Shown here piece by piece: positions 1 through 64,000 of a stretch of 64,000 nt of DNA. The notes beneath the pieces were generated by a model. The model was given only the letters and a program-made list of their open reading frames with translations, was not told where the DNA came from and did not search any database. The DNA is from Magallana gigas (Eukaryota): the NCBI RefSeq assembly GCF_963853765.1, contig NC_088861.1:21292281-21356280 (forward strand), read 5' to 3'. Made by a program: the position numbers and the translations under genes. Position 1 is the stretch's first letter. Each line of letters begins with the position of its first letter.

Positions 1-2780
1 TAGGAATATATAGAGAAAATCTGTAAACTTTCTTCTCAAAAACAATGACGCCAGGAAAGCTCAAATTCAAATGGAAGCATCCTCAGGTAATGTAGATTTT
101 AGTTTGTTCAAATCATGGTCCCCGGGGGAAGGGTTGGGCCACAGTAGGGGGATCAAGTTTTACATAGGAATATATAGAGAAAATCTTTAAACTTTCTTCT
201 CAAAAACTATGACGCCAGGAAAGCTCAAATTAAAATGGAAGCATCCTCAGGTAGTGTAGATTTTAGTTTGTTCAAATCATGGTCCCCGGGGGTAGGGTAG
301 GGCCACAGTAGGGGGATCAAGTTTTACATAGAAATATATAGAGAAAATCTTTAGACTTTCTTCTAAAAAACTATGACGACAGGAAAGCTCAAATTAAAAT
401 GGAAGCATCCTCAGGTAGGGTAGATTTTAGTTTGTTCAAATCATGGTCCCCGGGGGGTAGATTTGGGCCACAGTAGGGGGATCAAGTTTTACTTAGGAAT
501 ATATAGAGAAAATCTTTAAACATTCATCAAAAAAACTATGACGCCAGGAAAGCTCAAATTAAAATGGAAGCATCCTCAGGTAGTGTAGATTTTCGTTTGT
601 TCAAATCATGGTCCCCAGGGGTAGGGTAGGGCCACAGTAGGGGGATCAAGTTTTACATAGGAATATATAGAGAAAATCTGTCAACTTTCTTCTGAAAATC
701 TATGACGCCAGTAAAGCTCAAATTAAAATGGAAGCATCCTCAGGTAGTATAGATTTTAGTTTGTTCAAATCATGGTCCCCGGGGGTAGAGTTGGGCCACA
801 GTAGGGGGATCAAGTTTTACTTAGGAATATATACAGAAAATCTTTAAACTTTCTTCTCAAAAACTATGACGCCAGGAAAGCTCAAATTAAAATGGAAGCA
901 TCCTCAGGTAGTGTAGATTTTAGTTTGTTCAAATCATGGTCCCCGGGGGTAGGGTAGGGCCACAGTAGGGGGATCAAGTTTTACATAGGAATATAAAGAG
1001 AAAATCTGTAAACTTTCTTCTCAAAAACTATGACGCCAGGAAAGCTCAAATTCAAATGGAAGCATCCTCAGGAAGTGAATATTCTTGTTTGTTCAAATCA
1101 TGGTCCCCGGATGTAGGGTAGGGCCACAGTAGGGGGATCAAGTTTTACATAGGAGTATAGAGAGAAAATCTTTAAACTTTCTTCTCAAAAACTATGACGC
1201 CAGGAAAGCTCAAATTAAAATGGAAGAATCCTCAGGTAGTGTAGATTTTAGTTTGTTCAAATCATGGTCCCCGGGGGTAGGGTAGGGCCACAGTAGGGGG
1301 ATCAAGTTTTACATAGGAATATAAAGAGAAAATCTGTAAACTTTCTTCTCAAAAACTATGACGCCAGGAAAGCTCAAATTCAAATGGAAGCATCCTCAGG
1401 AAGTGAATATTCTTGTTTGTTCAAATCATGGTCCCCGGATGTAGGGTAGGGCCACAGGAGGGGGATCAAGTTTTACATAGGAGTATAGAGAGAAAATCTT
1501 TAAACTTTCTTCTCAAAAACTATGACGCCAGGAAAGCTCAAATTAAAATGGAAGCATCCTCAGGTAGTGTAGATTTTAGTTTGTTCAAATCATGGTCCCC
1601 GGAGGTAGGGTTGGGCCACAGTAGGGGGATCAAGTTTTACATAGGAATATATAGAGAAAATCTGTAAACTTTCTTCTCAAAAACTATGACGCCAGGAAAG
1701 CTCAAATTAAAATGGAAGCATCCTCAGGAAGTGAATATTCTTGTTTATTCAAATCATGGCCCCCGGATGTAGGGTAGGGCAACAGTAGGGGGATCAAGTT
1801 TTACGTAGGAAAATATATAGAGAAAATCTGTAAACTTTCTTCTCAAAAACTATGACGCCAGGAAAGCTCAAATTAAAATGGAAGCATCCTCAGGTAGTGT
1901 AGATTTAAGTTTGTTCAAATCGTGGTCGTCGGGGGTAGGGTTGGGCAACAGTAGGGGGATCAACTTTTATTTAGGAATATATAGAGAAAATCTGTAAACT
2001 TTCTTCTCAAAAACTATGACGCCAGGAAAGCTCAAATTCAAATGGAAGCATCCTCAGGAAGTGAATATTCTTGTTTGTTCAAATTAAGGTCCCCCGGGGT
2101 AGGGTTGGGCCACAGTAGGGGGATCAAGTTTTACATAGGAGTATATAGAGAAAATCTTTAAACTTTCTTCTCAAAAACTATGACGCCAGGAAAGCTCAAA
2201 TTAAAATGGAAGTATCCTCTGGTAGTGTAGATTTTAGTTTGTTCAAATCATGGTCCCCGGGGGTAGGGTTGGGCCACAGTAGGGGGATCAAGTTTTACAT
2301 AGGAATATATAGAGAACATTTTTAAACTTTCTTCTCAAAAACTATGACGCCAGGAAAGCTCAAATTAAAATAGAAGCATCCTCAGGAAGTGAATATTCTT
2401 GTATGTTCAAATCATGGTCCCCGGGGGTAGGGTTGGGCCACAGTAGGGGGATCAAGTTTTACATAGGAATATATAGAGAAAATCTTTAAACTTTCTTCCC
2501 AAAAACTATGACGCCAGGAAAGCTCAAAATAAAACGGAAGCATCCTCAGAAAATGAATATTCTTGTTTGTTCAAATCATGGTCCCCGGGGGAAGGGATGG
2601 GCCACAGTAGGGGGATCAAGTTTTACATAGGAGTATATAGAGAAAATCTTTAAACTTTCTTCTCAAAAACTATGACACCAAAAAAGCCCAAATTAAAATG
2701 GAAGCATCCTCTGGTAGTGTAGATTTTAGTTTGTTCAAATCATGGTCCCCGGGGCTAGGGTTGGGCCACAGTAGGGGGAT
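1..2780. repeat. Block duplicated at 14810-17590 (offset ~14.81 kb); the duplication extends upstream of the window
   Basis: 1-70 matches 14811-14880. The 84 aa marker ORF at 1413 matches the one at 16220. cgtggtcgtc variant monomers sit at ~1921 and ~16731. GAACATTTTTAAAC ... GTATGTTC landmarks sit at ~2290-2400 and ~17110-17211. The match ends at about 2780/17590. Confidence 0.75.
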
Positions 2781-5700
2781 CAAGTTTTACATAGGAATAT
2801 ATAAAGAAAATTTTTAAACTTTCTTCTCAAAAACTATGACGCCAGGAAAGCTCAAATTAAAATGGAAGAATCCTCAGGTAGTGTAGATTTTAGTTTGTTC
2901 AAATCCTGGTCCCCGGAGGTAGGGTTGGGCCACAGTAGGGGGATAAAGTTTTACATAGGAATATATAGAGAAAATCTGTAAACTTTCTTCTCAAAAACTA
3001 TGACGCCAGGAAAGCTCAAATTAAAATGGAAGCATCCTGAGGAAGTGAATATTCCTGTTTGTTCAAATCATGGTCCCCGGATGTAGGGTAGGGCCACAGT
3101 AGGGGGATCACCTTTTACATAGGAATATATAGAGAAAATCTTTAAATTTTCTTCTCAAAAACTATGACGCCAGGAAAGCTCAAATTAAAATGGAAGCATC
3201 CTCAGGAAGTAAATATTCTTGTTTGCTCAAATCATGGTCCCAGGATGTAGGGTAGGGCTACAGTAGGGGGATCAAGTTTTAAATAGGAATATATAGAGAA
3301 AATCTGTAAACTTTCTTCTCAAAAACTATGACGCCAGGAAAGCTCAAATCAAAATGGAAGCATCCTCAGGTAGTGTAGATTTTAGTTGGTTCAAATCATG
3401 GTCCCCGGGGGTAAGTTTGGGCCACAGTAGGGGGATCAACTTTTACATAGAAATATATAGAGAAAATCTGTAAACTTTCTTCTCAAAAACAATGACGTCA
3501 GGAAAGCTCAAATTCAAATGGAAGCATCCTCAGGAAGTGAATATTCTTGTTTGTTCAAATTATGGTCCCCGGGGGTAGGGTTGGGCCACAGTAGGGGGAT
3601 CAAGTTTTACTTAGGAGTATAAAGAGAAAATCTTTAAACTTTCTTCTCAAAAACTATGACGCCAGGAAAGCTCAAATTAAAATCGAAGTATCCTCTGGTA
3701 GTGTAGATTTTAGTTTGTTCAAATCATGGTCCCCGGGGGTAGGGTTGGGCAACAGTAGGGGGATCACCTTTTACATAGGAATATATAGAGAAAATCTTTA
3801 AATTTTCTTCTCAACAACTATGACGCCAGGAAGGCTCAAATTAAAATGAAAGTATCCCCAGGAAGTGAATATTCTTCTTTGTTCAAATCATGGTCCCAGG
3901 ATGTAGGGTAGGGCAACAGTAGGGGGATAAAGTTTTAAATAGGAATATAAAGAGAAAATCTGTAAACTTTCTTCTCAAAAACTACGACGCCTGGAAAGCT
4001 CAAATTAAAATGAAAGCATCTTCAGGTAGTGTAAATTTTAGTTTGTTCAAATCATGGTCCCCGGGGGTAGGGTTGGGCCACAGTATGGGGATCAAGTTTT
4101 ACGTAGGAATATATAGAGAATATCTCTAAACTTTCTTCTCAAAAACTATGACGCCAGGAAAGCTCAAATTAAAATGGAAGCATCCTCAGGAAGTGAATAT
4201 TCCTGTTTGTTCAAATCATGGTCCCCGGATGTACGGTAGGGCCACAGTAGGGGGATCAAGTTTGTAATTGGAATATATAGTGAAAATCTTTAAACTTTCT
4301 TCTAAAAAACAATGACGTCAGGAAAGCTCAAATTCAAATGGAAGCATCCTCAGGAAGTGAATATTCTTGTTTGTTCAAAGCATGGCACCCGGATGTAGGG
4401 TAGGGCCACAGTAGGGGGATCAAGTTTTACGTAGGAATATATATAGAGAAAATCTGTAAACTTTCTTCTCAAAAACTATGACTCCAGGAAAGCTCAAATT
4501 AAAATGGAAGCATCCTCAGGTAGTGTAGATTTAAGTTTGTTCAAATCGTGGTCGTCGGGGGTAGGGTTGGGCAACAGTAGGGGGATCAACTTTTATTTAG
4601 GAATATATAGAGAAAATCTGTAAACTTTCTTCTCAAAAACTATGACGCCAGGAAAGCTCAAATTCAAATGGAAGCATCCTCAGGAAGTGAATATTCTTGT
4701 TTGTTCAAATTAAGGTCCCCCGGGGTAGGGTTGGGCCACAGTAGGGGGATCAAGTTTTACATAGGAGTATATAGAGAAAATCTTTAAACTTTCTTCTCAA
4801 AAACTATGACGCCAGGAAAGCTCAAATTAAAATGGAAGTATCCTCTGGTAGTGTAGATATTAGTTTGTTCAAATCATTGTCCCCGGGGGTAGGGTTGGGC
4901 CACAGTAGGGGGATCAAGTTTTACATAGGAGTATAGAGAGAAAATCTTTAAACTTTCTAATCAAAAACTATGACGCCAGGAAAGCTCAAATTAAAATGGA
5001 AGAATCCTCAGGTAGTGTAGATTTTAGTTTGTTCAAATCCTGGTCCCCGGAGGTAGGGTTGGGCCACAGTAGGGGGATAAAGTTTTACATAGGAATATAT
5101 AGAGAAAATCTGTAAACTTTCTTCTCAAAAACTATGACGCCAGGAAAGCTCAAATTAAAATGGAAGCATCCTGAGGAAGTGAATATTCCTGTTTGTTCAA
5201 ATCATGGTCCCCGGATGTAGGGTAGGGCCACAGTAGGGGGATCAAGTTTGTAATTGGAATATATAGTGAAAATCTGTAAACTTTCTTCTCAAAAACTATG
5301 ACGCCAGGAAAGCTCAAATTAAAATGGAAGCATCCTCAGGAAGTGAATGTTCTTGTTTGTTTAAATCATGGTCCCCGGGGGTAGGGTTGGGGCACAGTAG
5401 GGGGATCAAGTTTTACATAGGAGTATATAGAGAAAATCTTTAAATTTTCTTCTCAAAAATTATGACGCCAGGAAAGCTCAAATTAAAATGGAAGTATCCT
5501 CTGGTAGAGTAGATTTTAGTTTCTTCAAATCATGGTCCCCGGGGGTAGGGTTTGGCAACAGTAGGGGGATCACCTTTTACATAGGAATATATAGAGAAAA
5601 TCTGTAAACTTTCTTCTCAAAAACTATGACGCCAGGAAAGCTCAAATTAAAATGGAGGTATCCTCTGGTAGTGTAGATTTTATTTTATTCAAATCCTGGT

Positions 5701-6003
5701 CCCCGGAGGTAGGGTTGGGCCACAGTAGGGGGATAAAGTTTTACTTAGGAATATATAGAGAAAATCTGTAAACTTTCTTCTCAAAAACTATGACGCCAGG
5801 AAAGCTCAAATTAAAATGGAAGCATCCTCAGGAAGTGAATATTCCTGTTTGTTCAAATCATGGTCCCCGGATGTAGGGTAGGGCCACAGTAGGGGGATCA
5901 AGTTTGTAATTGGAATATATAGTGAAAATCTTTAAACTTTCTTCTCAAAAACTATGACGCCAGGAAAGCTCAAATTAAAATGGAAGCATCCTCAGGAAGT
6001 GAA

Positions 6004-6063
6004 CGATATCGGCAGTCTTACTCTCACAGTATCCTGAATCACGGCCTAAAAAAATTGGGTGAA
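6004..6063. other. Non-satellite ~60 bp segment replacing ~43 bp of a monomer (CGATATCGGCAGTCTTACTCTCACAGTATCCTGAATCACGGCCTAAAAAAATTGGGTGAAT); candidate mobile-element or filler-DNA remnant
   Basis: The segment has no similarity to any part of the monomer consensus. It is flanked on both sides by normal monomer sequence (…CTCAGGAAGTGAA | insert | AGGGCCACAGTAGGGGG…). It contains an EcoRV site and a short A-run. Confidence 0.7.
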
Positions 6064-9000
6064 TAGGGCCACAGTAGGGGGATTAAGTTTTAAATAGGAA
6101 TATAAAGAGAAAATCTGTAAACTTTCTTCTCAAAAACTATGACGCCAGGAAAGCTCAAATTAAAATGAAAGCATCTTCAGGTAGTGTAAATTTTAGTTTG
6201 TTTAAATCATGGTCCCCGGAGGTAGGGTTGGGCCACAGTAGGGGGATCAAGTTTTACGTAGGAATATAAAGAGAAAATCTTTAAACTTTCTTCTCAAAAA
6301 CTATGACGCCAGGAAAGCTCAAATTAAAATGGAAGAATCCTCAGGTAGTGTAGATTTTAGTTTGTTCAAATCATGGTCCCCGGAGGTAGGGTTGGGCCAC
6401 AGTAGGGGGATAAAGTTTTACATAGGAATATATAGAGAAAATCTGTAAACTTTCTTCTCAAAAACTATGACGCCAGGAAAGCTCAAATTAAAATGGAAGC
6501 ATCCTCAGGAAGTGAATATTCTTGTTTGTTCAAATCATGGCCCCCGGATGTAGGGTAGGGCAACAGTAGGGGGATCAAGTTTTACGTAGGAATATATATA
6601 GAGAAAATCTGTAAACTTTCTTCTCAAAAACTATGACGCCAGGAAAGCTCAAATTAAAATGGAAGCATCCTCAGGTAGTGTAGATTTAAGTTTGTTCAAA
6701 TCGTGGTCGTCGGGGGTAGGGTTGGGCAACAGTAGGGGGATCAACTTTTATTTAGGAATATATAGAGAAAATCTGTAAACTTTCTTCTCAAAAACTATGA
6801 CGCCAGGAAAGCTCAAATTCAAATGGAAGCATCCTCAGGAAGTGAATATTCTTGTTTGTTCAAATTAAGGTCCCCCGGGGTAGGGTTGGGCCACAGTAGG
6901 GGGATCAAGTTTTACATAGGAGTATATAGAGAAAATCTTTAAACTTTCTTCTCAAAAACTATGACGCCAGGAAAGCTCAAATTAAAATGGAAGTATCCTC
7001 TGGTAGTGTAGATTTTAGTTTGTTCAAATCATGGTCCCCGGGGGTAGGGTTGGGCCACAGTAGGGGGATCAAGTTTTACATAGGAATATATAGAGAACAT
7101 TTTTAAACTTTCTTCTCAAAAACTATGACGCCAGGAAAGCTCAAATTAAAATAGAAGCATCCTCAGGTAGTGAATATTCTTGTTTGTTCAAATCATGGTC
7201 CCCGGGGGTAGGGTTGGGCCACAGTAGGGGGATCAAGTTTTATTTAGAAATATATAGAGAAAATCTTTAAACTTTCTTCCCAAAAACTATGACCCCAGGA
7301 AAGCTCAAATTAAAATGGAAGAATCCTCAGGTAGTGTAGATTTTAGTTTGTTCAAATCATGGTCCCCGGAGGTAGGGTTGGGCCACAGTAGGGGGATAAA
7401 GTTTTACATAGGAATATATAGAGAAAATCTGTAAACTTTCTTCTCAAAAACTATGACGCCAGGAAAGCTCAAATTAAAATGGAAGCATCCTCAGGAAGTG
7501 AATATTCTTGTTTGTTCAAATCATGGCCCCCGGATGTAGGGTAGGGCAACAGTAGGGGGATCAAGTTTTACGTAGGAATATATATAGAGAAAATCTGTAA
7601 ACTTTCTTCTCAAAAACTATGACGCCAGGAAAGCTCAAATTAAAATGGAAGCATCCTCAGGTAGTGTAGATTTAAGTTTGTTCAAATCGTGGTCGTCGGG
7701 GGTAGGGTTGGGCAACAGTAGGGGGATCAACTTTTATTTAGGAATATATAGAGAAAATCTGTAAACTTTCTTCTCAAAAACTATGACGCCAGGAAAGCTC
7801 AAATTCAAATGGAAGCATCCTCAGGAAGTGAATATTCTTGTTTGTTCAAATTAAGGTCCCCCGGGGTAGGTTTGGGCCACAGTAGGGGGATCAAGTTTTA
7901 CATAGGAGTATATAGAGAAAATCTTTAAACTTTCTTCTCAAAAACTATGACGCCAGGAAAGCTCAAATTAAAATGGAAGTATCCTCTGGTAGTGTAGATA
8001 TTAGTTTGTTCAAATCATGGTCCCCGGGGGTAGGGTTGGGCCACAGTAGGGGGATCAAGTTTTACATAGGAATATATAGAGAACATTTTTAAACTTTCTT
8101 CACAAAAACTATGACGCCAGGAAAGCTCAAATTAAAATAGAAGCATCCTCAGGTAGTGAATATTCTTGTTTGTTCAAATCATGGTCCCCGGGGGTAGGGT
8201 AGGGCCACAGTAGGGGGATCAAGTTTTATTTAGGAATATATAGAGAAAATCTTTAAACTTTCTTCCCAAAAACTATGACGCCAGGAAAGCTTAAAATAAA
8301 ACGGAAGCATCCTCAGAAAATGAATATTCTTGTTTGTTCAAATCATGGTCCCCGGGGGAAGGGATGGGCCACAGTAGGGGGATCAAGTTTTACATAGGAA
8401 TATATAGAGAAAATCTGTAAACTTTCTTCTCAAAAACTATGACGCCAGGAAAGCTCAAATTAAAATGGAAGCATCCTCAGGAACTGAATATTCTTGTTTG
8501 TTCAAATTATGGTCCCTGGGGGTAGGGTTGGGCCACAGTAGGGGGATCAAGTTTTACATAGGAGTATATAGAGAAAATCTTTAAACTTTCTTCTCAAAAA
8601 CTATGACACCAGAAAAGCCCAAATTAAAATGGAAGCATCCTCTGGTAGTGTAGATTTTAGTTTGTTCAAATCATGGTCCCCGGGGGTAGGGTTGGGCCAC
8701 AGTAGGGGGATCAAGTTTTAAATAGGAATATAGAGAAAATTTTTAAACTTTCTTCTCAAAAATTATGACGCCAGGAAAGCTCAAAATAAAATGGAAGCAT
8801 CCTCAGAAAGTGAATATTCTTGTTTGTTCAGATCATGGTCCCCGGGGGTAGAGATGGGCCACAGTAGAGGGGTCAACTTTTACATAGGAATATATAGAGA
8901 AATCTGTAAACTTTCTTCTCAAAAACTATGACGCCAGGAAAGCTCAAATTAAAATGGAAGCATCCTCAGGAACTGAATATTCTTGTTCGTTCAAATTATG

Positions 9001-11767
9001 GTCCCCGGGGGTAGGGTTGGGCCACAGTAGGGGGATCAAGTTTTACATAGGAGTATATAGAGAAAATCTTTAAACTTTCTTCTCAAAAACTATGACACCA
9101 AAAAAGCCCAAATTAAAATGGAAGCATCCTCTGGTAGTGTAGATTTTAGTTTTTTCAAATCATGGTCCCCGGGGCTAGGGTTGGGCCACAGTAGGGGGAT
9201 CAAGTTTTACATAGGAATATATAGAGAACATTTTTAAACTTTCTTCTCAAAAACTATGACGCCAGGAAAGCTCAAATTAAAATGGAAGCATCCTCAGGAA
9301 CTGAATTTTCTTGTTTGTTCAAATCATGGTCCCCGGGGGTAGGGTTGGGCCACAGTAGGGGGATCAAGTTTTACATAGGAATATATAGAGAAAATCTTTA
9401 AACTTTCTTTTCAAAAACAATGACGCCAGTAAAGCTCAAATTAAAATGGAAGCATTCTCAGAAAGTGAATATTCTTGTTTGTTCAAATTATGGTCCCCGG
9501 GGGCAGGGTTGGGCCACAGTAGGGGGATCAAGTTTTACATAGGAATATATAGAGAAAATCTTTGAACTTTCTTCCCAAAGACTATGACGCAAGGAAAGCT
9601 CAAATTAAAATGGAAGTATCCTCTGGTAGTGTAGATTTTTGTTTGTTCAAATCATGGTCCCCGGGGGTAGGGTTGGGCCACAGTAGGGGGATCAAGTTTT
9701 ACATAGGAATATATAGAGAAAATCTTTAAACTTTCTTCTCAAAAACTATGACGCCAGGAAAGCTCAAATTAAAATGGAAGCATCCTCAGGTAGTGTAGAT
9801 TTAAGTTTGTTCAAATCATGGTCCCCGGGGGTAGGTTTGGGCCACAGTAGGGGGATGAAGTTTTACATAGGAATATATAGAGAAAATCTGTAAACTTTCT
9901 TCTCAAAAACAATGACGCCAGGAAAGCTCAAATTCAAATGGAAGCATCCTCAGGTAATGTAGATTTTAGTTTGTTCAAATCATGGTCCCCGGGGGAAGGG
10001 TTGGGCCACAGTAGGGGGATCAAGTTTTACATAGGAATATATAGAGAAAATCTTTAAACTTTCTTCTCAAAAACAATGACGTCAGGAAAGCTCAAATTCA
10101 AATGGAAGCATCCTCAGGAAGTGAATATTCTTGTTTGTTCAAATCATGGCACCCGGATGTAGGGTAGGGCCACAGTAGGGGGATCAAGTTTTACGTAGGA
10201 ATATATATAGAGAAAATCTGTAAACTTTCTTCTCAAAAACTATGACGCCAGGAAAGCTCAAATTAAAATCGAAGCATCCTCAGGTAGTGTAGATTTAAGT
10301 TTGTTCAAATCGTGGTCGTCGGGGGTAGGGTTGGGCAACAGTAGGGGGATCAACTTTTATTTAGGAATATATAGAGAAAATCTGTAAACTTTCTTCTCAA
10401 AAACTATGACGCCAGGAAAGCTCAAATTCAAATGGAAGCATCCTCAGGAAGTGAATATTCTTGTTTGTTCAAATTAAGGTCCCCCGGGGTAGGGTTGGGC
10501 CACAGTAGGGGGATCAAGTTTTACATAGGAGTATATAGAGAAAATCTTTAAACTTTCTTCTCAAAAACTATGACGCCAGGAAAGCTCAAATTAAAATGGA
10601 AGTATCCTCTGGTAGTGTAGATATTAGTTTGTTCAAATCATTGTCCCCGGGGGTAGGGTTGGGCCACAGTAGGGGGATCAAGTTTTACATAGGAGTATAG
10701 AGAGAAAATCTTTAAACTTTCTAATCAAAAACTATGACGCCAGGAAAGCTCAAATTAAAATGGAAGAATCCTCAGGTAGTGTAGATTTTAGTTTGTTCAA
10801 ATCCTGGTCCCCGGAGGTAGGGTTGGGCCACAGTATGGGGATAAAGTTTTACATAGGAATATATAGAGAAAATCTGTAAACTTTCTTCTCAAAAACTATG
10901 ACGCCAGGAAAGCTCAAATTAAAATGGAAGCATCCTGAGGAAGTGAATATTCCTGTTTGTTCAAATCATGGTCCCCGGATGTAGGGTATGGCCACAGTAG
11001 GGGGATCAAGTTTGTAATTGGAATATATAGTGAAAATCTGTAAACTTTCTTCTCAAAAACTATGACGCCAGGAAAGCTCAAATTAAAATGGAAGCATCCT
11101 CAGGAAGTGAATGTTCTTGTTTGTTTAAATCATGGTCCCCGGGGGCAGGGTTGGGGCACAGTAGGGGGATCAAGTTTTACATAGGAGTATATAGAGAAAA
11201 TCTTTAAATTTTCTTCTCAAAAATTATGACGCCAGGAAAGCTCAAATTAAAATGGAAGTATCCTCTGGTAGAGTAGATTTTAGTTTCTTCAAATCATGGT
11301 CCCCGGGGGTAGGGTTTGGCAACAGTAGGGGGATCACCTTTTACATAGGAATATATAGAGAAAATCTTTAAACTTTCTTCTCAAAAACTATGACGCCAGG
11401 AAAGCTCAAATTAAAATGGAGGTATCCTCTGGTAGTGTAGATTTTATTTTATTCAAATCCTGGTCCCCGGAGGTAGGGTTGGGCCACAGTAGGGGGATAA
11501 AGTTTTACTTAGGAATATATAGAGAAAATCTGTAAACTTTCTTCTCAAAAACTATGACGCCAGGAAAGCTCAAATTAAAATGGAAGCATCCTCAGGAAGT
11601 GAATATTCCTGTTTGTTCAAATCATGGTCCCCGGATGTAGGGTAGGGCCACAGTAGGGGGATCAAGTTTGTAATTGGAATATATAGTGAAAATCTTTAAA
11701 CTTTCTTCTCAAAAACTATGACGCCAGGAAAGCTCAAATTAAAATGGAAGCATCCTCAGGAAGTGAA

Positions 11768-11827
11768 CGATATCGGCAGTCTTACTCTCACAGTATCCTG
11801 AATCACGGCCTAAAAAATTGGGTGAAT
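11768..11827. other. Second copy of the non-satellite ~60 bp segment, copied as part of the 5.77 kb HOR; it differs from the first copy only by one fewer A in the A-run
   Basis: It is identical in sequence and monomer context to 6004-6063 and lies 5764 bp downstream. Confidence 0.7.
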
Positions 11828-14809
11828 AGGGCCACAGTAGGGGGATTAAGTTTTAAATAGGAATATAAAGAGAAAATCTGTAAACTTTCTTCTCAAAAAC
11901 TATGACGCCAGGAAAGCTCAAATTAAAATGAAAGCATCTTCAGGTAGTGTAAATTTTAGTTTGTTTAAATCATGGTCCCCGGAGGTAGGGTTGGGCCACA
12001 GTAGGGGGATCAAGTTTTACGTAGGAATATAAAGAGAAAATCTTTAAACTTTCTTCTCAAAAACTATGACGCCAGGAAAGCTCAAATTAAAATGGAAGAA
12101 TCCTCAGGTAGTGTAGATTTTAGTTTGTTCAAATCATGGTCCCCGGAGGTAGGGTTGGGCCACAGTAGGGGGATAAAGTTTTACATAGGAATATATAGAG
12201 AAAATCTGTAAACTTTCTTCTCAAAAACTATGACGCCAGGAAAGCTCAAATTAAAATGGAAGCATCCTCAGGAAGTGAATATTCTTGTTTGTTCAAATCA
12301 TGGCCCCCGGATGTAGGGTAGGGCAACAGTAGGGGGATCAAGTTTTACGTAGGAATATATATAGAGAAAATCTGTAAACTTTCTTCTCAAAAACTATGAC
12401 GCCAGGAAAGCTCAAATTAAAATGGAAGCATCCTCAGGTAGTGTAGATTTAAGTTTGTTCAAATCGTGGTCGACGGGGGTAGGGTTGGACAACAGTAGGG
12501 GGATCAACTTTTATTTAGGAATATATAGAGAAAATCTGTAAACTTTCTTCTCAAAAACTATGACGCCAGGAAAGCTCAAATTCAAATGGAAGCATCTTCA
12601 GGAAGTGAATATTCTTGTTTGTTCAAATTAAGGTCCCCCGGGGTAGGGTTGGGCCACAGTAGGGGGATCAAGTTTTACATAGGAGTATATAGAGAAAATC
12701 TTTAAACTTTCTTCTCAAAAACTATGACGCCAGGAAAGCTCAAATTAAAATGGAAGTATCCTCTGGTAGTGTAGATTTTAGTTTGTTCAAATCATGGTCC
12801 CCGGGGCTAGGGTTGGGCCACAGTAGGGGGATCAAGTTTTACATAGGAGTATATAGAGAAAATCTTTAAACTTTCTTCTCAAAAACTATGACGCCAGGAA
12901 AGCTCAAATTAAAATGGAAGTATCCTCTGGTAGTGTAGATTTTAGTTTGTTCAAATCATGGTCCCCGGGGCTAGGGTTGGGCCACAGTAGGGGGATCAAG
13001 TTTTACATAGGAATATATAGAGAACATTTTTAAACTTTATTCTCAAAAACTATGACGCCAGGAAAGCTCAAATTAAAATAGAAGCATCCTCAGGTAGTGA
13101 ATATTCTTGTTTGTTCAAATCATGGTCCCCGGGGGTAGGGTTGGGCCACAGTAGGGGGATCAAGTTTTACATAGGAATATATAGAGAAAATCTTTAAACT
13201 TTCTTCCCAAAAACTATGACGCCAGGAAAGCTCAAAATAAAACGGAAGCATCCTCAGAAAATGAATATTCTTGTTTGTTCAAATCATGGTCCCCGGGGGA
13301 AGGGATTGGCCACAGTAGGGGGATCAAGTTTTACATAGGAATATATAGAGAAAATCTGTAAACTTCTTCTCAAAAACTATGACGCCAGGAAAGCTCAAAT
13401 TAAAATGGAAGCATCCTCAGGAACTGAATATTCTTGTTTGTTCAAATTATGGTCCCTGGGGGTAGGGTTGGGCTACAGTAGGGGGATCAAGTTTTACATA
13501 GGAGTATATAGAGAAAATCTTTAAACTTTCTTCTCAAAAACTATGACACCAGAAAAGCCCAAATTAAAATGGAAGCATCCTCTGGTAGTGTAGATTTTAG
13601 TTTGTTCAAATCATGGTCCCCGGGGGTAGGGTTGGGCCACAGTAGGGGGATCAAGTTTTAAATAGGAATATAGAGAAAATTTTTAAACTTTCTTCTCAAA
13701 AATTATGACGCCAGGAAAGCTCAAAATAAAATGGAAGCATCCTCAGAAAGTGAATATTCTTGTTTGTTCAGATCATGGTCCCCGGGGGTAGGGATGGGCC
13801 ACAGTAGAGGGGTCAACTTTTACATAGGAATATATAGAGAAATCTGTAAACTTTCTTCTCAAAAACTATGACGCCAGGAAAGCTCAAATTAAAATGGAAG
13901 CATCCCCAGGAACTGAATATTCTTGTTTGTTCAAATTATGGTCCCCGGGGGTAGGGTTGGGCCACAGTAGGGGGATCAAGTTTTACATAGGAGTATATAG
14001 AGAAAATCTTTAAACTTTCTTCTCAAAAACTATGACACCAAAAAAGCCCAAATTAAAATGGAAGCATCCTCTGGTAGTGTAGATTTTAGTTTTTTCAAAT
14101 CATGGTCCCCGGGGCTAGGGTTGGGCCACAGTAGGGGGATCAAGTTTTACATAGGAATATATAGAGAAAATTTTTAAACTTTCTTCTCAAAAACTATGAC
14201 GCCAGGAAAGCTCAAATTAAAATGGAAGCATCCTCAGGAACTGAATATTCTTGTTTGTTCAAATCATGGTCCCCGGGGGTAGGGTTGGGCCACAGTAGGG
14301 GGATCAAGTTTTATATAGGAATATATAGAGAAAATCTTTAAACTTTCTTTTCAAAAACAATGACGCCAGTAAAGCTCAAATTAAAATGGAAGCATTCTCA
14401 GAAAGTGAATATTCTTGTTTGTTCAAATTATGGTCCCCGGGGGTAGGGTTGGGCAACAGTAGGGGGATCAACTTTTACATAGGAATATATAGAGAAAATC
14501 TTTGAACTTTCTTCCCAAAGACTATGACGCAAGGAAAGCTCAAATTAAAATGGAAGTATCCTCTGGTAGTGTAGATTTTTGTTTGTTCAAATCATGGTCC
14601 CCGGGGGTAGGGTTGGGCCACAGTAGGGGGATCAAGTTTTACATAGGAATATATAGAGAAAATCTTTAAACTTTCTTCTCAAAAACTATGACGCCAGGAA
14701 AGCTCAAATTAAAATGGAAGCATCCTCAGGTAGTGTAGATTTAAGTTTGTTCAAATCATGGTCCCCGGGGGTAGGTTTGGGCCACAGTAGGGGGATGAAG
14801 TTTTACATA

Positions 14810-17590
14810 GGAATATATAGAGAAAATCTGTAAACTTTCTTCTCAAAAACAATGACGCCAGGAAAGCTCAAATTCAAATGGAAGCATCCTCAGGTAATGT
14901 AGATTTTAGTTTGTTCAAATCATGGTCCCCGGGGGAAGGGTTGGGCCACAGTAGGGGGATCAAGTTTTACATAGGAATATATAGAGAAAATCTTTAAACT
15001 TTCTTCTCAAAAACTATGACGCCAGGAAAGCTCAAATTAAAATGGAAGCATCCTCAGGTAGTGTAGATTTTAGTTTGTTCAAATCATGGTCCCCGGGGGT
15101 AGGGTAGGGCCACAGTAGGGGGATCAAGTTTTACATAGAAATATATAGAGAAAATCTTTAGACTTTCTTCTAAAAAACTATGACGACAGGAAAGCTCAAA
15201 TTAAAATGGAAGCATCCTCAGGTAGGGTAGATTTTAGTTTGTTCAAATCATGGTCCCCGGGGGGTAGATTTGGGCCACAGTAGGGGGATCAAGTTTTACT
15301 TAGGAATATATAGAGAAAATCTTTAAACATTCATCAAAAAAACTATGACGCCAGGAAAGCTCAAATTAAAATGGAAGCATCCTCAGGTAGTGTAGATTTT
15401 CGTTTGTTCAAATCATGGTCCCCAGGGGTAGGGTAGGGCCACAGTAGGGGGATCAAGTTTTACATAGGAATATATAGAGAAAATCTGTCAACTTTCTTCT
15501 GAAAATCTATGACGCCAGTAAAGCTCAAATTAAAATGGAAGCATCCTCAGGTAGTATAGATTTTAGTTTGTTCAAATCATGGTCCCCGGGGGTAGAGTTG
15601 GGCCACAGTAGGGGGATCAAGTTTTACTTAGGAATATATACAGAAAATCTTTAAACTTTCTTCTCAAAAACTATGACGCCAGGAAAGCTCAAATTAAAAT
15701 GGAAGCATCCTCAGGTAGTGTAGATTTTAGTTTGTTCAAATCATGGTCCCCGGGGGTAGGGTAGGGCCACAGTAGGGGGATCAAGTTTTACATAGGAATA
15801 TAAAGAGAAAATCTGTAAACTTTCTTCTCAAAAACTATGACGCCAGGAAAGCTCAAATTCAAATGGAAGCATCCTCAGGAAGTGAATATTCTTGTTTGTT
15901 CAAATCATGGTCCCCGGATGTAGGGTAGGGCCACAGTAGGGGGATCAAGTTTTACATAGGAGTATAGAGAGAAAATCTTTAAACTTTCTTCTCAAAAACT
16001 ATGACGCCAGGAAAGCTCAAATTAAAATGGAAGAATCCTCAGGTAGTGTAGATTATAGTTTGTTCAAATCATGGTCCCCGGGGGTAGGGTAGGGCCACAG
16101 TAGGGGGATCAAGTTTTACATAGGAATATAAAGAGAAAATCTGTAAACTTTCTTCTCAAAAACTATGACGCCAGGAAAGCTCAAATTCAAATGGAAGCAT
16201 CCTCAGGAAGTGAATATTCTTGTTTGTTCAAATCATGGTCCCCGGATGTAGGGTAGGGCCACAGGAGGGGGATCAAGTTTTACATAGGAGTATAGAGAGA
16301 AAATCTTTAAACTTTCTTCTCAAAAACTATGACGCCAGGAAAGCTCAAATTAAAATGGAAGCATCCTCAGGTAGTGTAGATTTTAGTTTGTTCAAATCAT
16401 GGTCCCCGGAGGTAGGGTTGGGCCACAGTAGGGGGATCAAGTTTTACATAGGAATATATAGAGAAAATCTGTAAACTTTCTTCTCAAAAACTATGACGCC
16501 AGGAAAGCTCAAATTAAAATGGAAGCATCCTCAGGAAGTGAATATTCTTGTTTATTCAAATCATGGCCCCCGGATGTAGGGTAGGGCAACAGTAGGGGGA
16601 TCAAGTTTTACGTAGGAATATATATAGAGAAAATCTGTAAACTTTCTTCTCAAAAACTATGACGCCAGGAAAGCTCAAATTAAAATGGAAGCATCCTCAG
16701 GTAGTGTAGATTTAAGTTTGTTCAAATCGTGGTCGTCGGGGGTAGGGTTGGGCAACAGTAGGGGGATCAACTTTTATTTAGGAATATATAGAGAAAATCT
16801 GTAAACTTTCTTCTCAAAAACTATGACGCCAGGAAAGCTCAAATTCAAATGGAAGCATCCTCAGGAAGTGAATATTCTTGTTTGTTCAAATTAAGGTCCC
16901 CCGGGGTAGGGTTGGGCCACAGTAGGGGGATCAAGTTTTACATAGGAGTATATAGAGAAAATCTTTAAACTTTCTTCTCAAAAACTATGACGCCAGGAAA
17001 GCTCAAATTAAAATGGAAGTATCCTCTGGTAGTGTAGATTTTAGTTTGTTCAAATCATGGTCCCCGGGGGTAGGGTTGGGCCACAGTAGGGGGATCAAGT
17101 TTTACATAGGAATATATAGAGAACATTTTTAAACTTTCTTCTCAAAAACTATGACGCCAGGAAAGCTCAAATTAAAATAGAAGCATCCTCAGGAAGTGAA
17201 TATTCTTGTATGTTCAAATCATGGTCCCCGGGGGTAGGGTTGGGCCACAGTAGGGGGATCAAGTTTTACATAGGAATATATAGAGAAAATCTTTAAACTT
17301 TCTTCCCAAAAACTATGACGCCAGGAAAGCTCAAAATAAAACGGAAGCATCCTCAGAAAATGAATATTCTTGTTTGTTCAAATCATGGTCCCCGGGGGAA
17401 GGGATGGGCCACAGTAGGGGGATCAAGTTTTACATAGGAGTATATAGAGAAAATCTTTAAACTTTCTTCTCAAAAACTATGACACCAAAAAAGCCCAAAT
17501 TAAAATGGAAGCATCCTCTGGTAGTGTAGATTTTAGTTTGTTCAAATCATGGTCCCCGGGGCTAGGGTTGGGCCACAGTAGGGGGATCAA
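14810..17590. repeat. Duplicate of 1-2780
   Basis: See the paired feature 1-2780. Confidence 0.75.
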
Positions 17591-18978: not shown

Positions 18979-21900
18979 ATGGAAGCATCCTCAGGTAGTG
19001 TAGATTTTAGTTTGTTCAAATCATGGTCCCCAGGGGTAGGGTTGGGCCACAGTAGGGGGATCAAGTTTTACTTAGGAATATATAGAGAAAATCTTTATAC
19101 ATTCTTCGATAAAACTATGACGCCAGGAAAGCTCAAATTAAAATGGAAGCATCCTCAGGTAGTGTAGATTTTAGTTTGCACAGTAGGGGGATCAAGTTTT
19201 ACATAGGAATATATAGAGAAAATCTTTAAACTTTCTTCTCAAAAACTATGACGCCAGGAAAGCTCAAATTAAAATGGAAGCATCCTCAGGTAGTGTAGAT
19301 TTTAGTTTGTTCAAATCATGGTCCCCGGGGGTAGGGTAGGGCCACAGGTGGGGGATCAAGTTTTACATAGGAATATATAGAGAAAATCTGTAAACTTTCT
19401 TCTCAAAAACTATGACGCCAGGAAAGCTCAAATTCAAATGGAAGCATCCTCAGGAAGTGAATATTCTTGTTTGTTCAAATCATGGTCCCCGGATGTAGGG
19501 TAGGGCCACAGGAGGGGGATCAAGTTTTACATAGGAGTATAGAGAGAAAATCTTTAAACTTTCTTCTCAAAAACTATGACGCCAGGAAAGCTCAAATTAA
19601 AATGGAAGAATCCTCAGGTAGTGTAGATTTTAGTTTGTTCAAATCATGGTCCCCGGAGGTAGGGTTGGGCCACAGTAGGGGGATCAAGTTTTACATAGGA
19701 ATATATAGAGAAAATCTGTAAACTTTCTTCTCAAAAACTATGACGCCAGGAAAGCTCAAATTAAAATGGAAGCATCCTCAGGAAGTGAATATTCTTGTTT
19801 ATTCAAATCATGGCCCCCGGATGTAGGGTAGGGCAACAGTAGGGGGATCAAGTTTTACGTAGGAATATATATAGAGAAAATCTGTAAACTTTCTTCTCAA
19901 AAACTATGACGCCAGGAAAGCTCAAATTAAAATGGAAGCATCCTCAGGTAGTGTAGATTTAAGTTTGTTCAAATCGTGGTCGTCGGGGGTAGGGTTGGGC
20001 AACAGTAGGGGGATCAACTTTTATTTAGGAATATATAGAGAAAATCTGTAAACTTTCTTCTCAAAAACTATGACGCCAGGAAAGCTCAAATTCAAATGGA
20101 AGCATCCTCAGGAAGTGAATATTCTTGTTTGTTCAAATTAAGGTCCCCCGGGGTAGGGTTGGGCCACAGTAGGGGGATCAAGTTTTACATAGGAGTATAT
20201 AGAGAAAATCTTTAAACTTTCTTCTCAAAAACTATGACGCCAGGAAAGCTCAAATTAAAATGGAAGTATCCTCTGGTAGTGTAGATTTTAGTTTGTTCAA
20301 ATCATGGTCCCCGGGGGTAGGGTTGGGCCACAGTAGGGGGATCAAGTTTTACATAGCAATATATAGAGAACATTTTTAAACTTTCTCCTCAAAAACTATG
20401 ACGCCAGGAAAGCTCAAATTAAAATAGAAGCATCCTCAGGAAGTGAATATTCTTGTTTGTTCAAATCATGGTCCCCGGGGGTAGGGTTGGGCCACAGTAG
20501 GGGGATCAAGTTTTACATAGGAATATATAGAGAAAATCTTTAAACTTTCTTCCCAAAAACTATGACGCCAGGAAAGCTCAAAATAAAACGGAAGCATCCT
20601 CAGAAAATGAATATTCTTGTTTGTTCAAATCATGGTCCCCGGGGGGAGGGATGGGCCACAGTAGGGGGATCAAGTTTTACATAGGAGTATATAGAGAAAA
20701 TCTTTAAACTTTCTTCTCAAAAACTATGACACCAAAAAAGCCCAAATTAAAATGGAAGCATCCTCTGGTAGTGTAGATTTTAGTTTGTTCAAATCATGGT
20801 CCCCGGGGCTAGGGTTGGGCCACAGTAGGGGGATCAAGTTTTACATAGGAATATATAGAGAAAATTTTTAAACTTTCTTCTCAAAAACTATGACGCCAGG
20901 AAAGCTCAAATTAAAATGGAAGCATCCTCAGGAACTGAATATTCTTGTTTGTTCAAATCATGGTCCCCGGGGGTAGGGTTGGGCCACAGTAGGGGGATCA
21001 AGTTTTACATAGGAATATATAGAGAAAATCTTTAAACTTTCTTTTCAAAAACAATGACGCCAGTAAAGCTCAAATTAAAATGGAAGCATTCTCAGAAAGT
21101 GAATATTCTTGTTTGTTCAAATTATGGTCCCCGGGGGTAGGGTTGGGCCACAGTAGGGGGATCAAGTTTTACATAGGAATATATAGAGAAAATCTTTGAA
21201 CTTTCTTCCCAAAGACTATGACGCAAGGAAAGCTCAAATTAAAATGGAAGTATCCTCTGGTAGTGTAGATTTTTGTTTGTTCAAATCATGGTCCCCGGGG
21301 GTAGGGTTGGGCCACAGTAGGGGGATCAAGTTTTACATAGGAATATATAGAGAAAATCTTTAAACTTTCTTCTCAAAAACTATGACGCCAGGAAAGCTCA
21401 AATTAAAATAGAAGCATCCTCAGGTAGTGTAGATTTAAGTTTGTTTAAATCATGGTCCCCGGGGGTAGGTTTGGGCCACAGTAGGGGGATGAAGTTTTAC
21501 ATAGGAATATATAGAGAAAATCTGTAAACTTTCTTCTCAAAATCAATGACGCCAGGAAAGCTCAAATTCAATTGGAAGCATCCTCAGGTAATGTACATTT
21601 TAGTTTGTTCAAATCATGGTCCCCGGGGGAAGGGTTGGGCCACAGTAGGGGGATCAAGTTTTACATAGGAATATATAGAGAAAATCTTTAAACTTTCTTC
21701 TCAAAAACTATGACGCCAGGAAAGCTCAAATTAAAATGGAAGCATCCTCAGGTAGTGTAGATTTTAGTTTGTTCAAATCATGGTCCCCGGGGGTAGGGTT
21801 GGGCCACAGTAGGGGGATCAAGTTTTACATAGAAATATATAGAGAAAATCTTTAGACTTTCTTCTAAAAAACTATGACGCCAGGAAAGCTCAAATTAAAA

Positions 21901-62095: not shown

Positions 62096-64000
62096 CAGTA
62101 GGGGGTTCAACTTTTACATAGGAATATATAGAGAAAATCTTTAAACTTTCTTCTCAAAAACTATGGCACCAGGAAAGCTCAAATTAAAATGGAAGCATCC
62201 TCAGGTAGAGTAGATTTTAGTTTGTTCAAATCATGGTCCCCGGGGGGTAGGGTTGGGCTGCAGTAGGGGTATCAAGTATTACATAGGAATATATAGAGAA
62301 AATCTGTAAACTTTCTCTTCATAAACTATGACGCCAGGAAAGCTCAAATTAAAATGAATGCATTCTCAGAAAGTGAATATTCTTGTTTGTTCAAATTATG
62401 GTCCCCGGGGGTAGGGTTGGGCCACAGTAGGGGGGTCAAGTTTTACATAGGAATATATAGAGAAAATCTGTCAGCTTTCTTCTCAAAAACTATGACGCCA
62501 GGAAAGCTCAAATTAAAATGGAAGTATCCTCTGGTAGTATAGATTTTAGTTTGTTCAAATCATGGTCCCCGGGGGTAGAGTTGGGCCACAGTAGGGGGAT
62601 CAAGTTTTACTTAGGAATATATACAGAAAATCTTTAAACTTTCTTCTCAAAAACTATGACGCCAGGAAAGCTCAAATTAAAATGGAAGCATCCTCAGGTA
62701 GTGTAGATTTTAGTCTGTTCAAATCATGGTCCCCGGGGGTAGGGTAGGGCCACAGTAGGGGGATCAAGTTTTACATAGGAATATATAGAGAAAATCTGTA
62801 AACTTTCTTCTCAAAAACTATGACGCCAGGAAAGCTCAAATTAAAATTGAAGCATCCTCAGGAAGTGAATATTCTTGTTTGTTCAAATCATGGTCCCCGG
62901 ATGTAGGGTAGGGCCACAGGAGGGGGATCAAGTTTTACTTAGGAATATATACAGAAAATCTTTAAACATTCTTCTCAAAAACTATGACGCCAAGAAAGCT
63001 CAAATTAAAATGGAAGCATCCTCAGGTAGAGTAGATTTAGTTTGTTCAAATCATGGTCCCCGGGGGTAGGGTTGGGCCACAGTAGGGGATTCAACTTTTA
63101 CATAGGAAAATATAGAGAAAATCTTTAAACTTTCTTCTCAAAAACTATGACGCCAGGAAAGCTCAAATTAAAATGGAAGCATCCTCAGGTAGTGTAGATT
63201 TCAGTTTGTTCAAATCATGGTCCCCGGGGGTAGGGTTGGGCTGCAGTAGGGGGATCAAGTATTACATAGGAATATATAGAGAAAATCTGTAAACTTTCTT
63301 TTCAAAAACTATGACGCCAGGAAAGCTCAAATTAAAATGAATGCATTCTCAGAAAGTGAATATTCTTGTTTGTTCAAATTATGGTCCCCGGGGGTAGGGT
63401 TGGGCCACAGTAGGGGGATCAAGTTTAACATAGGAATATATAGAGAAAATCTGTAAACTTTCTTCTCAAACACTATGACGCCAGGAAAGCTCAAATTAAA
63501 ATGAAAGCATCCTCAGGAAGTGAATATTCTTCTTTGTTCAAATCATGGTCCCCGGATGTAGGGTAGGGCCACAGTAGGGGGATCAAGTTTTACTTAGGAA
63601 TAAATAGAGAAAATCTGTAAACTTTCTTCTCGAAAACAATGACGCCAGGAAAGCTCAAATTAAAATGGAAGCATCCTCAGGTAGTGTAGATTTTAGTTTG
63701 TTCAAATCGTGGTCCCCAGGGGTAGGGTAGGGCCACAGTAGGGGGATCAAGTTTTACATAGAAATATATACAGAAAATCTTTAAACTTTCTTCTCAAAAA
63801 CTATGACGCCAGGAAAGCTCAAATTAAAATGGAAGCATCCTCAGGTAGTGTAGATTTTAGTTTGTTCAAATCATGGTCCCCGGGGGTAGGGTAGGGCCAC
63901 AGTAGGGGGATCAAGTTTTATATAGGAATATATAGAGAACATCTTTCAACTTTTTTCTCAAAAACTATGACGCCAGGAAAGCTCAAATTAAAATGGAAGC
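61110..64000. repeat. Short HOR: ~985 bp (6-monomer) unit in about 2.9 tandem copies at the 3' end of the window
   Basis: Marker ORFs at 61370/62354 and 61891/62875 are 984 bp apart. The variant ATGAATGCATTCTCAGAAAGTGAATATTC recurs at ~62354 and ~63340. GGGG(G/A)TTCAACTTTTACAT recurs at ~61110, ~62100 and ~63085. Confidence 0.7.

What the first reader, a model, noticed from the sequence alone, without database searches (positions are those of the whole stretch)
6004..11827. Foreign ~60 bp sequence embedded in a monomer and propagated with its HOR
CGATATCGGCAGTCTTACTCTCACAGTATCCTGAATCACGGCCTAAAAAAATTGGGTGAAT replaces the central ~43 bp of a monomer at 6004-6063 and again at 11768-11827, exactly one 5764 bp HOR period apart. 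It has no resemblance to the satellite consensus and ends in an A-run. It could be a SINE or retroelement tail, a captured fragment of unique DNA, or NHEJ filler. Because it interrupts an otherwise pure satellite, it is the only non-satellite sequence in 64 kb and a useful phylogenetic and diagnostic tag for this HOR. The single-base difference between the copies (A7 vs A6) indicates a very recent duplication.
Basis: seen in the sequence. Interest (0 to 1): 0.6.

Follow-up and report, generated by a model that had tools for sequence, protein, structure and literature searches.

The report
Repair scar in oyster Cg170 satellite
A 60-base stretch of unrelated DNA replaces about 39 bases of one repeat unit in an oyster Cg170 satellite array and was later copied once by a local 5.8-kb duplication; it is an ordinary mutational scar of a kind already described for this satellite, and its source could not be traced here.

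Summary
The string is present exactly twice, at 6004-6064 (A7) and 11768-11827 (A6), 5764 bp apart. It is the only non-satellite sequence in the window and shows no gapped similarity to the satellite on either strand.

The window is a pure array of CgiSat01a (Cg170/HindIII satDNA) of Crassostrea gigas or a close relative, matching the published consensus at 162/164.

The host monomer matches an intact neighbour 656 bp upstream at 118/119 bases up to the left junction. About 39 bp of satellite were lost and about 60 bp gained. A 5-bp direct repeat, GTGAA, brackets the insert.

The "5764-bp HOR" is a two-copy tandem duplication, 0.46% diverged and with an 824-bp indel. It is not the array's repeat period. 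It is about 20 times more diverged than the youngest duplications in the window, so it is not "very recent".

The best reading is a break repaired by end joining with captured filler DNA, then carried along passively. This equals the "cut-and-replace" events described for Cg170 monomers in 2016.

The origin of the 60-mer is unresolved because no oyster genome or transposon library was searchable. Interest is low.

The parts
6004..6063 (+). Foreign segment, copy 1. It is 60 bp, or 61 bp if the ambiguous T at 6064 is counted. It contains the 8-bp palindrome CGATATCG at 6004-6011 and the A7 run at 6048-6054.
11768..11826 (+). Foreign segment, copy 2. It is 59 bp, with the A6 run at 11812-11817, and is otherwise identical to copy 1.
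5885..6069 (+). Host monomer 'Z', copy 1 (185 bp). Its first 119 bp are W-type satellite, followed by the foreign segment, followed by TAGGGC of the monomer end.
11649..11832 (+). Host monomer 'Z', copy 2 (184 bp).
5229..5392 (+). Intact paralogous monomer 'W', 656 bp (four monomers) upstream. It shows the pre-event state: 118/119 identical to Z up to the left junction, after which similarity stops abruptly.
5999..6003 (+). GTGAA, the last satellite bases before the insert. This is the left copy of the 5-bp direct repeat.
   Evidence: (found in 0.3% of shuffles; a post hoc test)
6059..6063 (+). GTGAA at the right end of the insert, followed by T and then AGGGC. This is the right copy of the direct repeat.
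4305..10068 (+). Copy 1 of the local tandem duplication that carries the insert, about 35 monomers long. The boundaries are approximate.
10069..15010 (+). Copy 2 of the tandem duplication, about 30 monomers long. It lacks 5 monomers (824 bp) relative to copy 1. The two copies differ at 0.46% of aligned bases.

Best explanation
The feature is a single old mutational scar with no function of its own.

Inferred event: a double-strand break, or a collapsed replication fork, occurred inside one W-type Cg170 monomer. It was repaired by non-homologous or microhomology-assisted end joining. The repair removed about 39 bp of satellite (monomer positions about 120-158 in the CACAGTAGGGGG phase). It filled the gap with about 55-60 bp of DNA copied or captured from somewhere outside the array.

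Later, a tandem duplication of about 5.76 kb, of the kind unequal exchange produces, copied the whole block including the scar (shown). One copy then gained or lost one A in the homopolymer, or the difference is a sequencing error.

This is the same outcome as the 'cut-and-replace' events reported for Cg170 monomers.

Shown: the sequence is foreign, deletion and insertion sit at the same site, the junctions are abrupt, a 5-bp direct repeat brackets the insert, and the scar is older than its duplication. Inferred: the repair pathway and the absence of function. Unknown: the donor of the filler.
For: Identity of the array. It is CgiSat01a/Cg170, matching the published consensus at 162/164.

Foreign nature. 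The insert is unrelated to the satellite on either strand and to the segment it replaces.

Event in an existing array. The intact paralogue W matches 118/119 up to the junction. The local four-monomer periodicity [W X Y N][Z a b E] continues across the site: Z resembles W and E resembles N. So the event hit an existing array rather than joining two arrays.

Typical end-joining features. Loss of about 39 bp and gain of about 60 bp occur at one point. GTGAA is repeated at both edges of the insert, which happens in 0.3% of shuffles; this fits microhomology use.

No mobile-element or RNA signature. There is no hairpin (z = +0.74). No inverted repeat touches the insert. There is no tRNA or Rfam match.

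Passive propagation. The insert occurs only in the two copies of one local duplication among 392 monomers.

Precedent. PMC5139131 describes Cg170 monomer parts excised and replaced by unrelated sequence of similar length.
Against: The donor sequence was not found, so 'captured filler' is a default reading rather than a demonstrated one.

An insert of 55-60 bp with no template anywhere in the 64-kb window is long for polymerase-theta-type filler, which is usually copied from nearby sequence.

The A7 run near the 3' end and the 5-bp flanking repeat could instead be the tail and target-site duplication of a 5'-truncated retroelement.

The high-identity tract at the 656-bp lag, 5032-5347 against 5688-6003 with 3 mismatches, stops exactly at the left junction. 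This could mean a more complex event, such as gene conversion or template switching, or simply that later conversion stopped where homology ended.

The negative searches are weak. The oyster satellite itself is absent from the metagenome collection that was scanned.
Confidence: 0.55

Rival explanations
1. The insert is the 3' end of a 5'-truncated non-LTR retroelement (SINE or LINE). It was inserted by target-primed reverse transcription, or captured as cDNA at a break, with an accompanying target deletion.
For: There is an A7 run near the 3' end. A GTGAA direct repeat brackets the insert, which is rare by chance. Bivalve SINEs end in poly-A or a microsatellite and carry target-site duplications (PMC11481361). 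Very short 5'-truncated copies are common for such elements (general knowledge).
Against: The A-run is not terminal: TTGG lies between it and the repeat. The repeat is 5 bp, whereas bivalve SINE duplications are reported as 6-18 bp. About 39 bp of target were lost, whereas a normal insertion loses none. There is no tRNA-like or Rfam signal. The two open frames of the insert share no word clusters with any protein in the 5.8-billion-protein set.
Confidence: 0.2
2. The insert is a remnant of a Helentron (Cg_HINE) flank. These elements carry Cg170-type repeats followed by a right flank of about 60 bp, so the insert could be a fossil element end embedded in the array.
For: Most CgiSat01 copies (91%) are associated with Helitron/Helentron elements, and the right flank is described as a roughly 60-bp segment after the last repeat (PMC7492417; PMC8268682). 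An 8-bp palindrome lies at one end of the insert. In the published orientation of the satellite, that palindrome is followed by TT.
Against: The palindrome CGATATCG cannot form a stem-loop, and the fold is no better than shuffles. No subterminal inverted repeat touches the insert. There is no microsatellite. The monomer phase and the local four-monomer pattern continue across the site. Six 10-11-mers of the insert are absent from the supplementary text of the Cg_HINE and satellitome papers. However, the flank consensus figure and Table S2 were not readable.
Confidence: 0.1
3. The insert is a scrambled or strongly diverged piece of the satellite monomer itself, not foreign DNA.
For: Short chance matches exist, for example CACAGTA, and GAATCACGG-CC against AAATCATGGTCC.
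Against: Local, whole-window and position-specific gapped alignments all score no better than shuffled controls.
Confidence: 0.03
4. The insert is an assembly or read artefact, such as a chimeric read or adapter remnant, duplicated by misassembly.
For: Satellite arrays are hard to assemble. A7 against A6 is a typical homopolymer read error.
Against: The two copies sit in blocks that differ at 20 substitutions and an 824-bp indel, so they are distinct loci in the assembly. There is no match to plasmid, E. coli or phage DNA. From memory only, the sequence resembles no common sequencing adapter.
Confidence: 0.04

Closest known systems
'Cut-and-replace' events in Cg170 satellite monomers (Satovic et al. 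2016, BMC Genomics, PMC5139131)
   Same: It is the same satellite family. Part of a monomer is missing and is replaced at the same spot by unrelated sequence of comparable length. The junctions are abrupt, the monomer continues in register on both sides, and the arrangement is then multiplied by copying.
   Different: The published cases lie in the flanks of short, Helitron-associated arrays; the main example is a 54-bp spacer replacing 63 bp. This one lies deep inside a long array of at least 64 kb. Its insert is longer than the deleted piece (60 against 39 bp), and it shows a 5-bp direct repeat at the edges. No sequence identity to the published spacers could be checked beyond the absence of six 10-11-mers in that paper's supplements.
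Filler or captured DNA at end-joined double-strand breaks (NHEJ or alternative end joining)
   Same: There is a simultaneous deletion and insertion, short direct repeats or microhomology at the junctions, and no transposon termini.
   Different: Polymerase-theta fillers are usually shorter and copied from nearby sequence, and no template exists in the 64-kb window. The pathway cannot be shown from sequence alone.
5'-truncated SINE/LINE insertions
   Same: There is an A-rich stretch towards one end and a short flanking direct repeat.
   Different: The A-run is not terminal, the repeat is only 5 bp, target DNA was lost, and no homology to any element could be tested.
Cg_HINE non-autonomous Helentrons carrying Cg170-type repeats (PMC7492417)
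   Same: A segment of about 60 bp follows a Cg170-type repeat, and there is a palindrome at one end.
   Different: There is no hairpin-forming palindrome, no subterminal inverted repeats and no microsatellite. The array also continues in phase beyond the insert.

Membership tests
Cg170 / CgiSat01a satellite DNA (host array) | Monomer of 164-166 bp with high identity to the published consensus | tested here: met
   The window consensus (164 bp) matches the reverse complement of CgiSat01a at 162/164.
Cg170 / CgiSat01a satellite DNA (host array) | Head-to-tail tandem arrangement | tested here: met
   There are 392 monomers across the whole window, 322 of them exactly 164 bp.
Cut-and-replace event in Cg170 (PMC5139131) | Part of a monomer is missing while the rest continues in register on both sides | tested here: met
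   About 39 bp are missing relative to paralogues W and N. The monomer resumes at TAGGGC and the next monomer is in phase.
Cut-and-replace event in Cg170 (PMC5139131) | The missing part is replaced by sequence unrelated to the satellite | tested here: met
   no similarity beyond chance.
Cut-and-replace event in Cg170 (PMC5139131) | The replacement is of similar length to the missing part | tested here: inconclusive
   60 bp replace 39 bp, a net gain of 21 bp. The published example is 54 bp replacing 63 bp.
SINE/LINE 3' end inserted by target-primed reverse transcription | Poly-A or microsatellite tail at the very 3' end, abutting the target-site duplication | tested here: not met
   The A7 run (6048-6054) is followed by TTGG before the GTGAA repeat.
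SINE/LINE 3' end inserted by target-primed reverse transcription | Target-site duplication (6-18 bp in bivalve SINEs) with no loss of target | tested here: not met
   The direct repeat is only 5 bp, and about 39 bp of target are lost.
SINE/LINE 3' end inserted by target-primed reverse transcription | Homology to a known element's 3' region | not testable with these tools
   No oyster genome or transposon library was available. There were no Rfam or tRNA hits.
Cg_HINE Helentron flank (PMC7492417) | Palindrome able to form a stem-loop in the right flank | tested here: not met
   The DNA fold of 5994-6074 gives -4.2 kcal/mol, z = +0.74 against shuffles. The only palindrome is the loop-less 8-mer CGATATCG.
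Cg_HINE Helentron flank (PMC7492417) | Subterminal inverted repeats of 11-12 bp, and a microsatellite in the left flank | tested here: not met
   No inverted repeat involves 6004-6064, and there is no microsatellite in the insert.
Cg_HINE Helentron flank (PMC7492417) | Sequence similarity to the published LF and RF consensus | not testable with these tools
   The consensus sequences are in a figure and Table S2 is illegible in the held text. The six 10-11-mers of the insert that were searched are absent from the supplements.
Higher-order repeat (HOR) of 5764 bp | A multi-monomer unit repeated many times as the period of the array | tested here: not met
   There are only two copies, differing by a five-monomer indel. 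Identity at lag 5764 over the whole window is 30%. The dominant lags are 5661, 3247, 2909 and 19776.
Locally templated polymerase-theta filler | The insert is copied from sequence near the break | tested here: not met
   The best match anywhere in the 64-kb window is 8 bp, no better than shuffles.

The most novel reading that the evidence does not exclude
The 60-mer could be the footprint of a specific, recurrent process acting on Cg170. Candidates are the transposition-like 'cut-and-replace' exchange speculated in 2016, or an undescribed small mobile element that targets the G-rich block at the end of the monomer. In that case the same or related inserts would be found at the same monomer position in independent arrays. 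The evidence here does not exclude this. All three structural lesions of 10 bp or more in the window have a breakpoint in or within 3 nt of the G-run block GGGGGTAGGGTTGGGCCACAGTAGGGGG.
Probability: 0.07. Interest if true: 0.45.

Novelty: new member of a known kind. Interest (0 to 1): 0.15.

Why it matters
It matters little in itself. It is one more example, inside a long array rather than at an array edge, of satellite monomers being partly replaced by unrelated DNA. That phenomenon is already described for this oyster satellite.

Its practical value is as a unique sequence tag in an otherwise featureless array of at least 64 kb. It can anchor reads, check the assembly, and date one local duplication relative to the younger expansions around it. 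If the donor locus were identified, it would give one data point on how breaks in oyster satellite DNA are repaired.

Tried and rejected
Searches for the donor, all negative:
- Two exact scans of viral contigs with 22-24-mers.
- One scan of JGI metagenome contigs.
- One scan of prokaryotic genome contigs.
- blastn against plasmids, E. coli genomes and phages.

A control scan of the metagenome collection with a conserved satellite pattern also found nothing. The host is therefore not represented there, and that negative carries no weight.

A protein word search with the two stop-free frames of the insert found no candidate. It is unclear how well oyster proteins and transposon ORFs are covered in that set.

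A full-text search of papers for 14-15-mers of the insert gave only one chance hit, in a rat paper.

Supplement searches for six 10-11-mers in the oyster satellitome, Cg_HINE and junction papers were negative. Three further papers have no supplements held as text.

Rfam and ARAGORN found nothing on the region.

The 'scrambled monomer' reading was rejected by three alignment tests. The 'junction of two unrelated arrays' reading was rejected because the four-monomer pattern continues across the site.

I also asked whether the insert-bearing monomer corresponds positionally to the recurrent 131-bp truncated monomer of the main repeat. The flanking monomers do not support a specific correspondence.
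Full report
**What is in the window.** The whole 64-kb window is one tandem array of a 164-bp repeat. Tandem Repeats Finder reports period 164 throughout. Cutting at the conserved motif CACAGTAGGGGG gives 392 monomers, 322 of them exactly 164 bp. Base composition is flat at 38-39% G+C.

The consensus matches the reverse complement of CgiSat01a at 162 of 164 positions. [quoted passage not shown] The source is therefore C. gigas or a very close relative.

Cg170 is the most abundant oyster satellite. [quoted passage not shown] It is also carried in short arrays inside non-autonomous Helentron elements (PMC7348941; PMC7492417; PMC8268682).

**Checking the observation.** Its 43-nt core occurs exactly twice, even allowing three mismatches; none is expected by chance.
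- Copy 1 is 6004-6064, with A7 at 6048-6054.
- Copy 2 is 11768-11827, with A6.
- The starts are 5764 bp apart.
- The host monomers are 185 and 184 bp.

A scan for runs of rare 12-mers shows these two sites are the only stretches of non-satellite sequence in the window. The next longest run, at 62249-62289, is just a monomer with clustered point mutations.

Three versions were run, and none supports cryptic satellite origin.
- Local alignment to the consensus dimer on both strands scored 8, against 9.1 +/- 1.5 for shuffles.
- blastn-short against the whole window with the inserts masked gave a best match of 8 bp. Shuffled inserts did as well or better 92% of the time.
- Position-specific global alignment to the segment it replaces used four monomer variants, including the CgiSat01b sub-family, under four scoring schemes. 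It gave p between 0.24 and 1.0.

**Anatomy of the event.** The first 119 bp of the host monomer (5885-6003) differ at one base from monomer W at 5229-5392, four monomers (656 bp) upstream. W therefore shows the state before the event. Similarity to W and to the other GGAAGTGAAT-type monomers ends abruptly after ...GGAAGTGAA. It resumes at TAGGGC, the last bases of the monomer. About 39 bp of satellite (TATTCC...GTAGGG) were lost and 60 bp were gained.

The local array has a decayed four-monomer pattern, [H I V N][W X Y N][Z a b E]. The first and fourth positions still match across the insert: Z resembles W, and E resembles N. So the event happened inside an existing array and did not join two unrelated arrays.

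A tract of near identity at the 656-bp lag, 5032-5347 against 5688-6003 with three mismatches, ends exactly at the left junction. Either the event included copying from the upstream paralogue, or a later conversion tract simply stopped where homology ended. I cannot separate these two readings.

The five bases GTGAA that precede the insert recur as its last five bases (5999-6003 and 6059-6063). In shuffles this happens 0.3% of the time, although the test is post hoc.

The insert has 43% G+C and starts with the 8-bp palindrome CGATATCG. It shows none of the following:
- a better-than-random fold (z = +0.74);
- an inverted repeat with its surroundings;
- a tRNA or Rfam match.

**The "HOR".** A map of monomer types and lag-specific mismatch counts show that 5764 bp is not the period of the array. 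It is a two-copy tandem duplication, about 4305-10068 and 10069-15010. The second copy lacks five monomers (824 bp). The copies differ at 20 of 4379 aligned bases (0.46%).

Elsewhere in the window the prominent long-range periods are 5661, 3247, 2909, 6156, 14807 and 19776 bp. Some blocks are almost identical, with 2 mismatches in 8 kb at lag 19776.

The insertion is therefore older than the 5.76-kb duplication. That duplication is in turn roughly twenty times more diverged than the youngest expansions. The single A7/A6 difference inside the 60-mer does not indicate a very recent duplication. It may even be a homopolymer read error.

**Where did the 60 bases come from?** This could not be determined, because no oyster genome or transposon library is reachable with the tools.

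Exact scans of viral, metagenome and prokaryotic contig collections found nothing, and neither did blastn against plasmids, E. coli and phages. A control scan showed that the satellite itself is absent from the metagenome collection, so that negative says nothing about the host genome.

- A protein word search with the two open frames found no candidate.
- A full-text search of papers gave only one chance hit, in an unrelated rat paper.
- Searches of the supplements of the relevant oyster papers found nothing.

**Most likely mechanism.** One break inside a monomer was repaired by end joining. The repair lost about 39 bp and incorporated about 55-60 bp of unrelated DNA. The scar was then carried passively by a tandem duplication.

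The shown parts are the foreign nature of the insert, the coincident loss and gain, the abrupt junctions, the edge repeat, and the order of events. The repair pathway and the lack of function are inferred.

The outcome is what Satovic et al. 2016 called "cut-and-replace" in Cg170. In those cases, parts of monomers are excised and replaced by unrelated sequence of similar length, and the arrangement is then multiplied (PMC5139131).

**Rivals.**
- A 5'-truncated retroelement tail is the main alternative. The A7 run and the 5-bp flanking repeat favour it. Against it, the A-run is not terminal and the repeat is shorter than the 6-18 bp reported for bivalve SINEs. Target DNA was also lost.
- A Helentron flank remnant is suggested by the roughly 60-bp right flank described for Cg_HINE elements. 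However, the stem-loop, the subterminal inverted repeats and the microsatellite are all missing.
- A scrambled monomer is rejected by the alignment tests.
- An assembly artefact is unlikely, because the two copies sit in clearly diverged blocks.

**Verdict.** It is nonetheless an ordinary repair or insertion scar of a kind already described for this satellite, copied once by a local duplication that is not the array's HOR. Interest is low. Its main use is as a unique tag in the array.

Noticed in passing
window 1-64000: The array runs off both ends of the window, so it has at least 392 monomers (at least 64 kb). This is longer than the longest standalone CgiSat01 array reported in 2021, which had 232 monomers (about 40 kb) and contained an assembly gap (PMC8268682). 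It has a nested structure of segmental duplications at lags 5661, 3247, 2909, 6156, 14807 and 19776 bp. Some copies differ at only 2 bases in 8 kb. A higher-order organisation of Cg170 is not mentioned in the satellitome paper I read.
   Followed up: partly
e.g. 19179-19309, 25335-25465, 30338-30468 (15 copies in all): A recurrent 131-bp truncated monomer carries a 33-bp deletion (...TAGTTTG|CACAGTAGG...). The deletion removes TTCAAATCATGGTCCCCGGGGGTAGGGTTGGGC, which overlaps the segment lost at the insert site. It is propagated with the main repeat blocks.
   Followed up: partly
e.g. around 22278-22290, 27940, 33601 (7 copies in all): A recurrent 154-bp monomer carries a 10-bp deletion (AGTTTTACAT) just after GGGGGATCA. 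In every case it directly follows a 131-bp truncated monomer. Tandem Repeats Finder reports the pair as a 121-bp period.
   Followed up: no
every monomer junction, e.g. 6213-6240: Each monomer boundary carries the G-run block GGGGGTAGGGTTGGGCCACAGTAGGGGG, four G-tracts with loops of 2, 2 and 8 nt. It overlaps the palindrome CCCCGGGG. All three structural lesions of 10 bp or more in the window have a breakpoint inside this block or within 3 nt of it. These lesions are the insert with its deletion, the 33-bp deletion and the 10-bp deletion. A rough post hoc estimate gives a chance of about 0.05. This may mark a fragile spot.
   Followed up: partly
L001 (ENA ERZ27264537) and L002 (ENA ERZ8157676): A protein search with an 84-aa open frame of the satellite found two metagenome contigs. 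L001 is a tandem array of a related but diverged Cg170-type repeat. L002 holds about 1.5 strongly diverged, non-tandem copies flanked by unrelated sequence, which is reminiscent of the element-borne form of this repeat family.
   Followed up: no
e.g. 57834-58088 (+), and 9 similar sites: Stop-free stretches of 81-86 codons run across one and a half monomers in several monomer types. The only similar sequences found in the protein database are the two satellite-derived ORFs on metagenome contigs. They are most likely chance open frames in a low-complexity repeat.
   Followed up: partly
2767-4406 (monomer types M to U): A stretch of about ten monomer types occurs only once in the window and differs by 6-28 bases from every other type. 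It lies between a copy of the main repeat block and the insert-bearing duplication. It looks like an older, non-homogenised part of the array.
   Followed up: no
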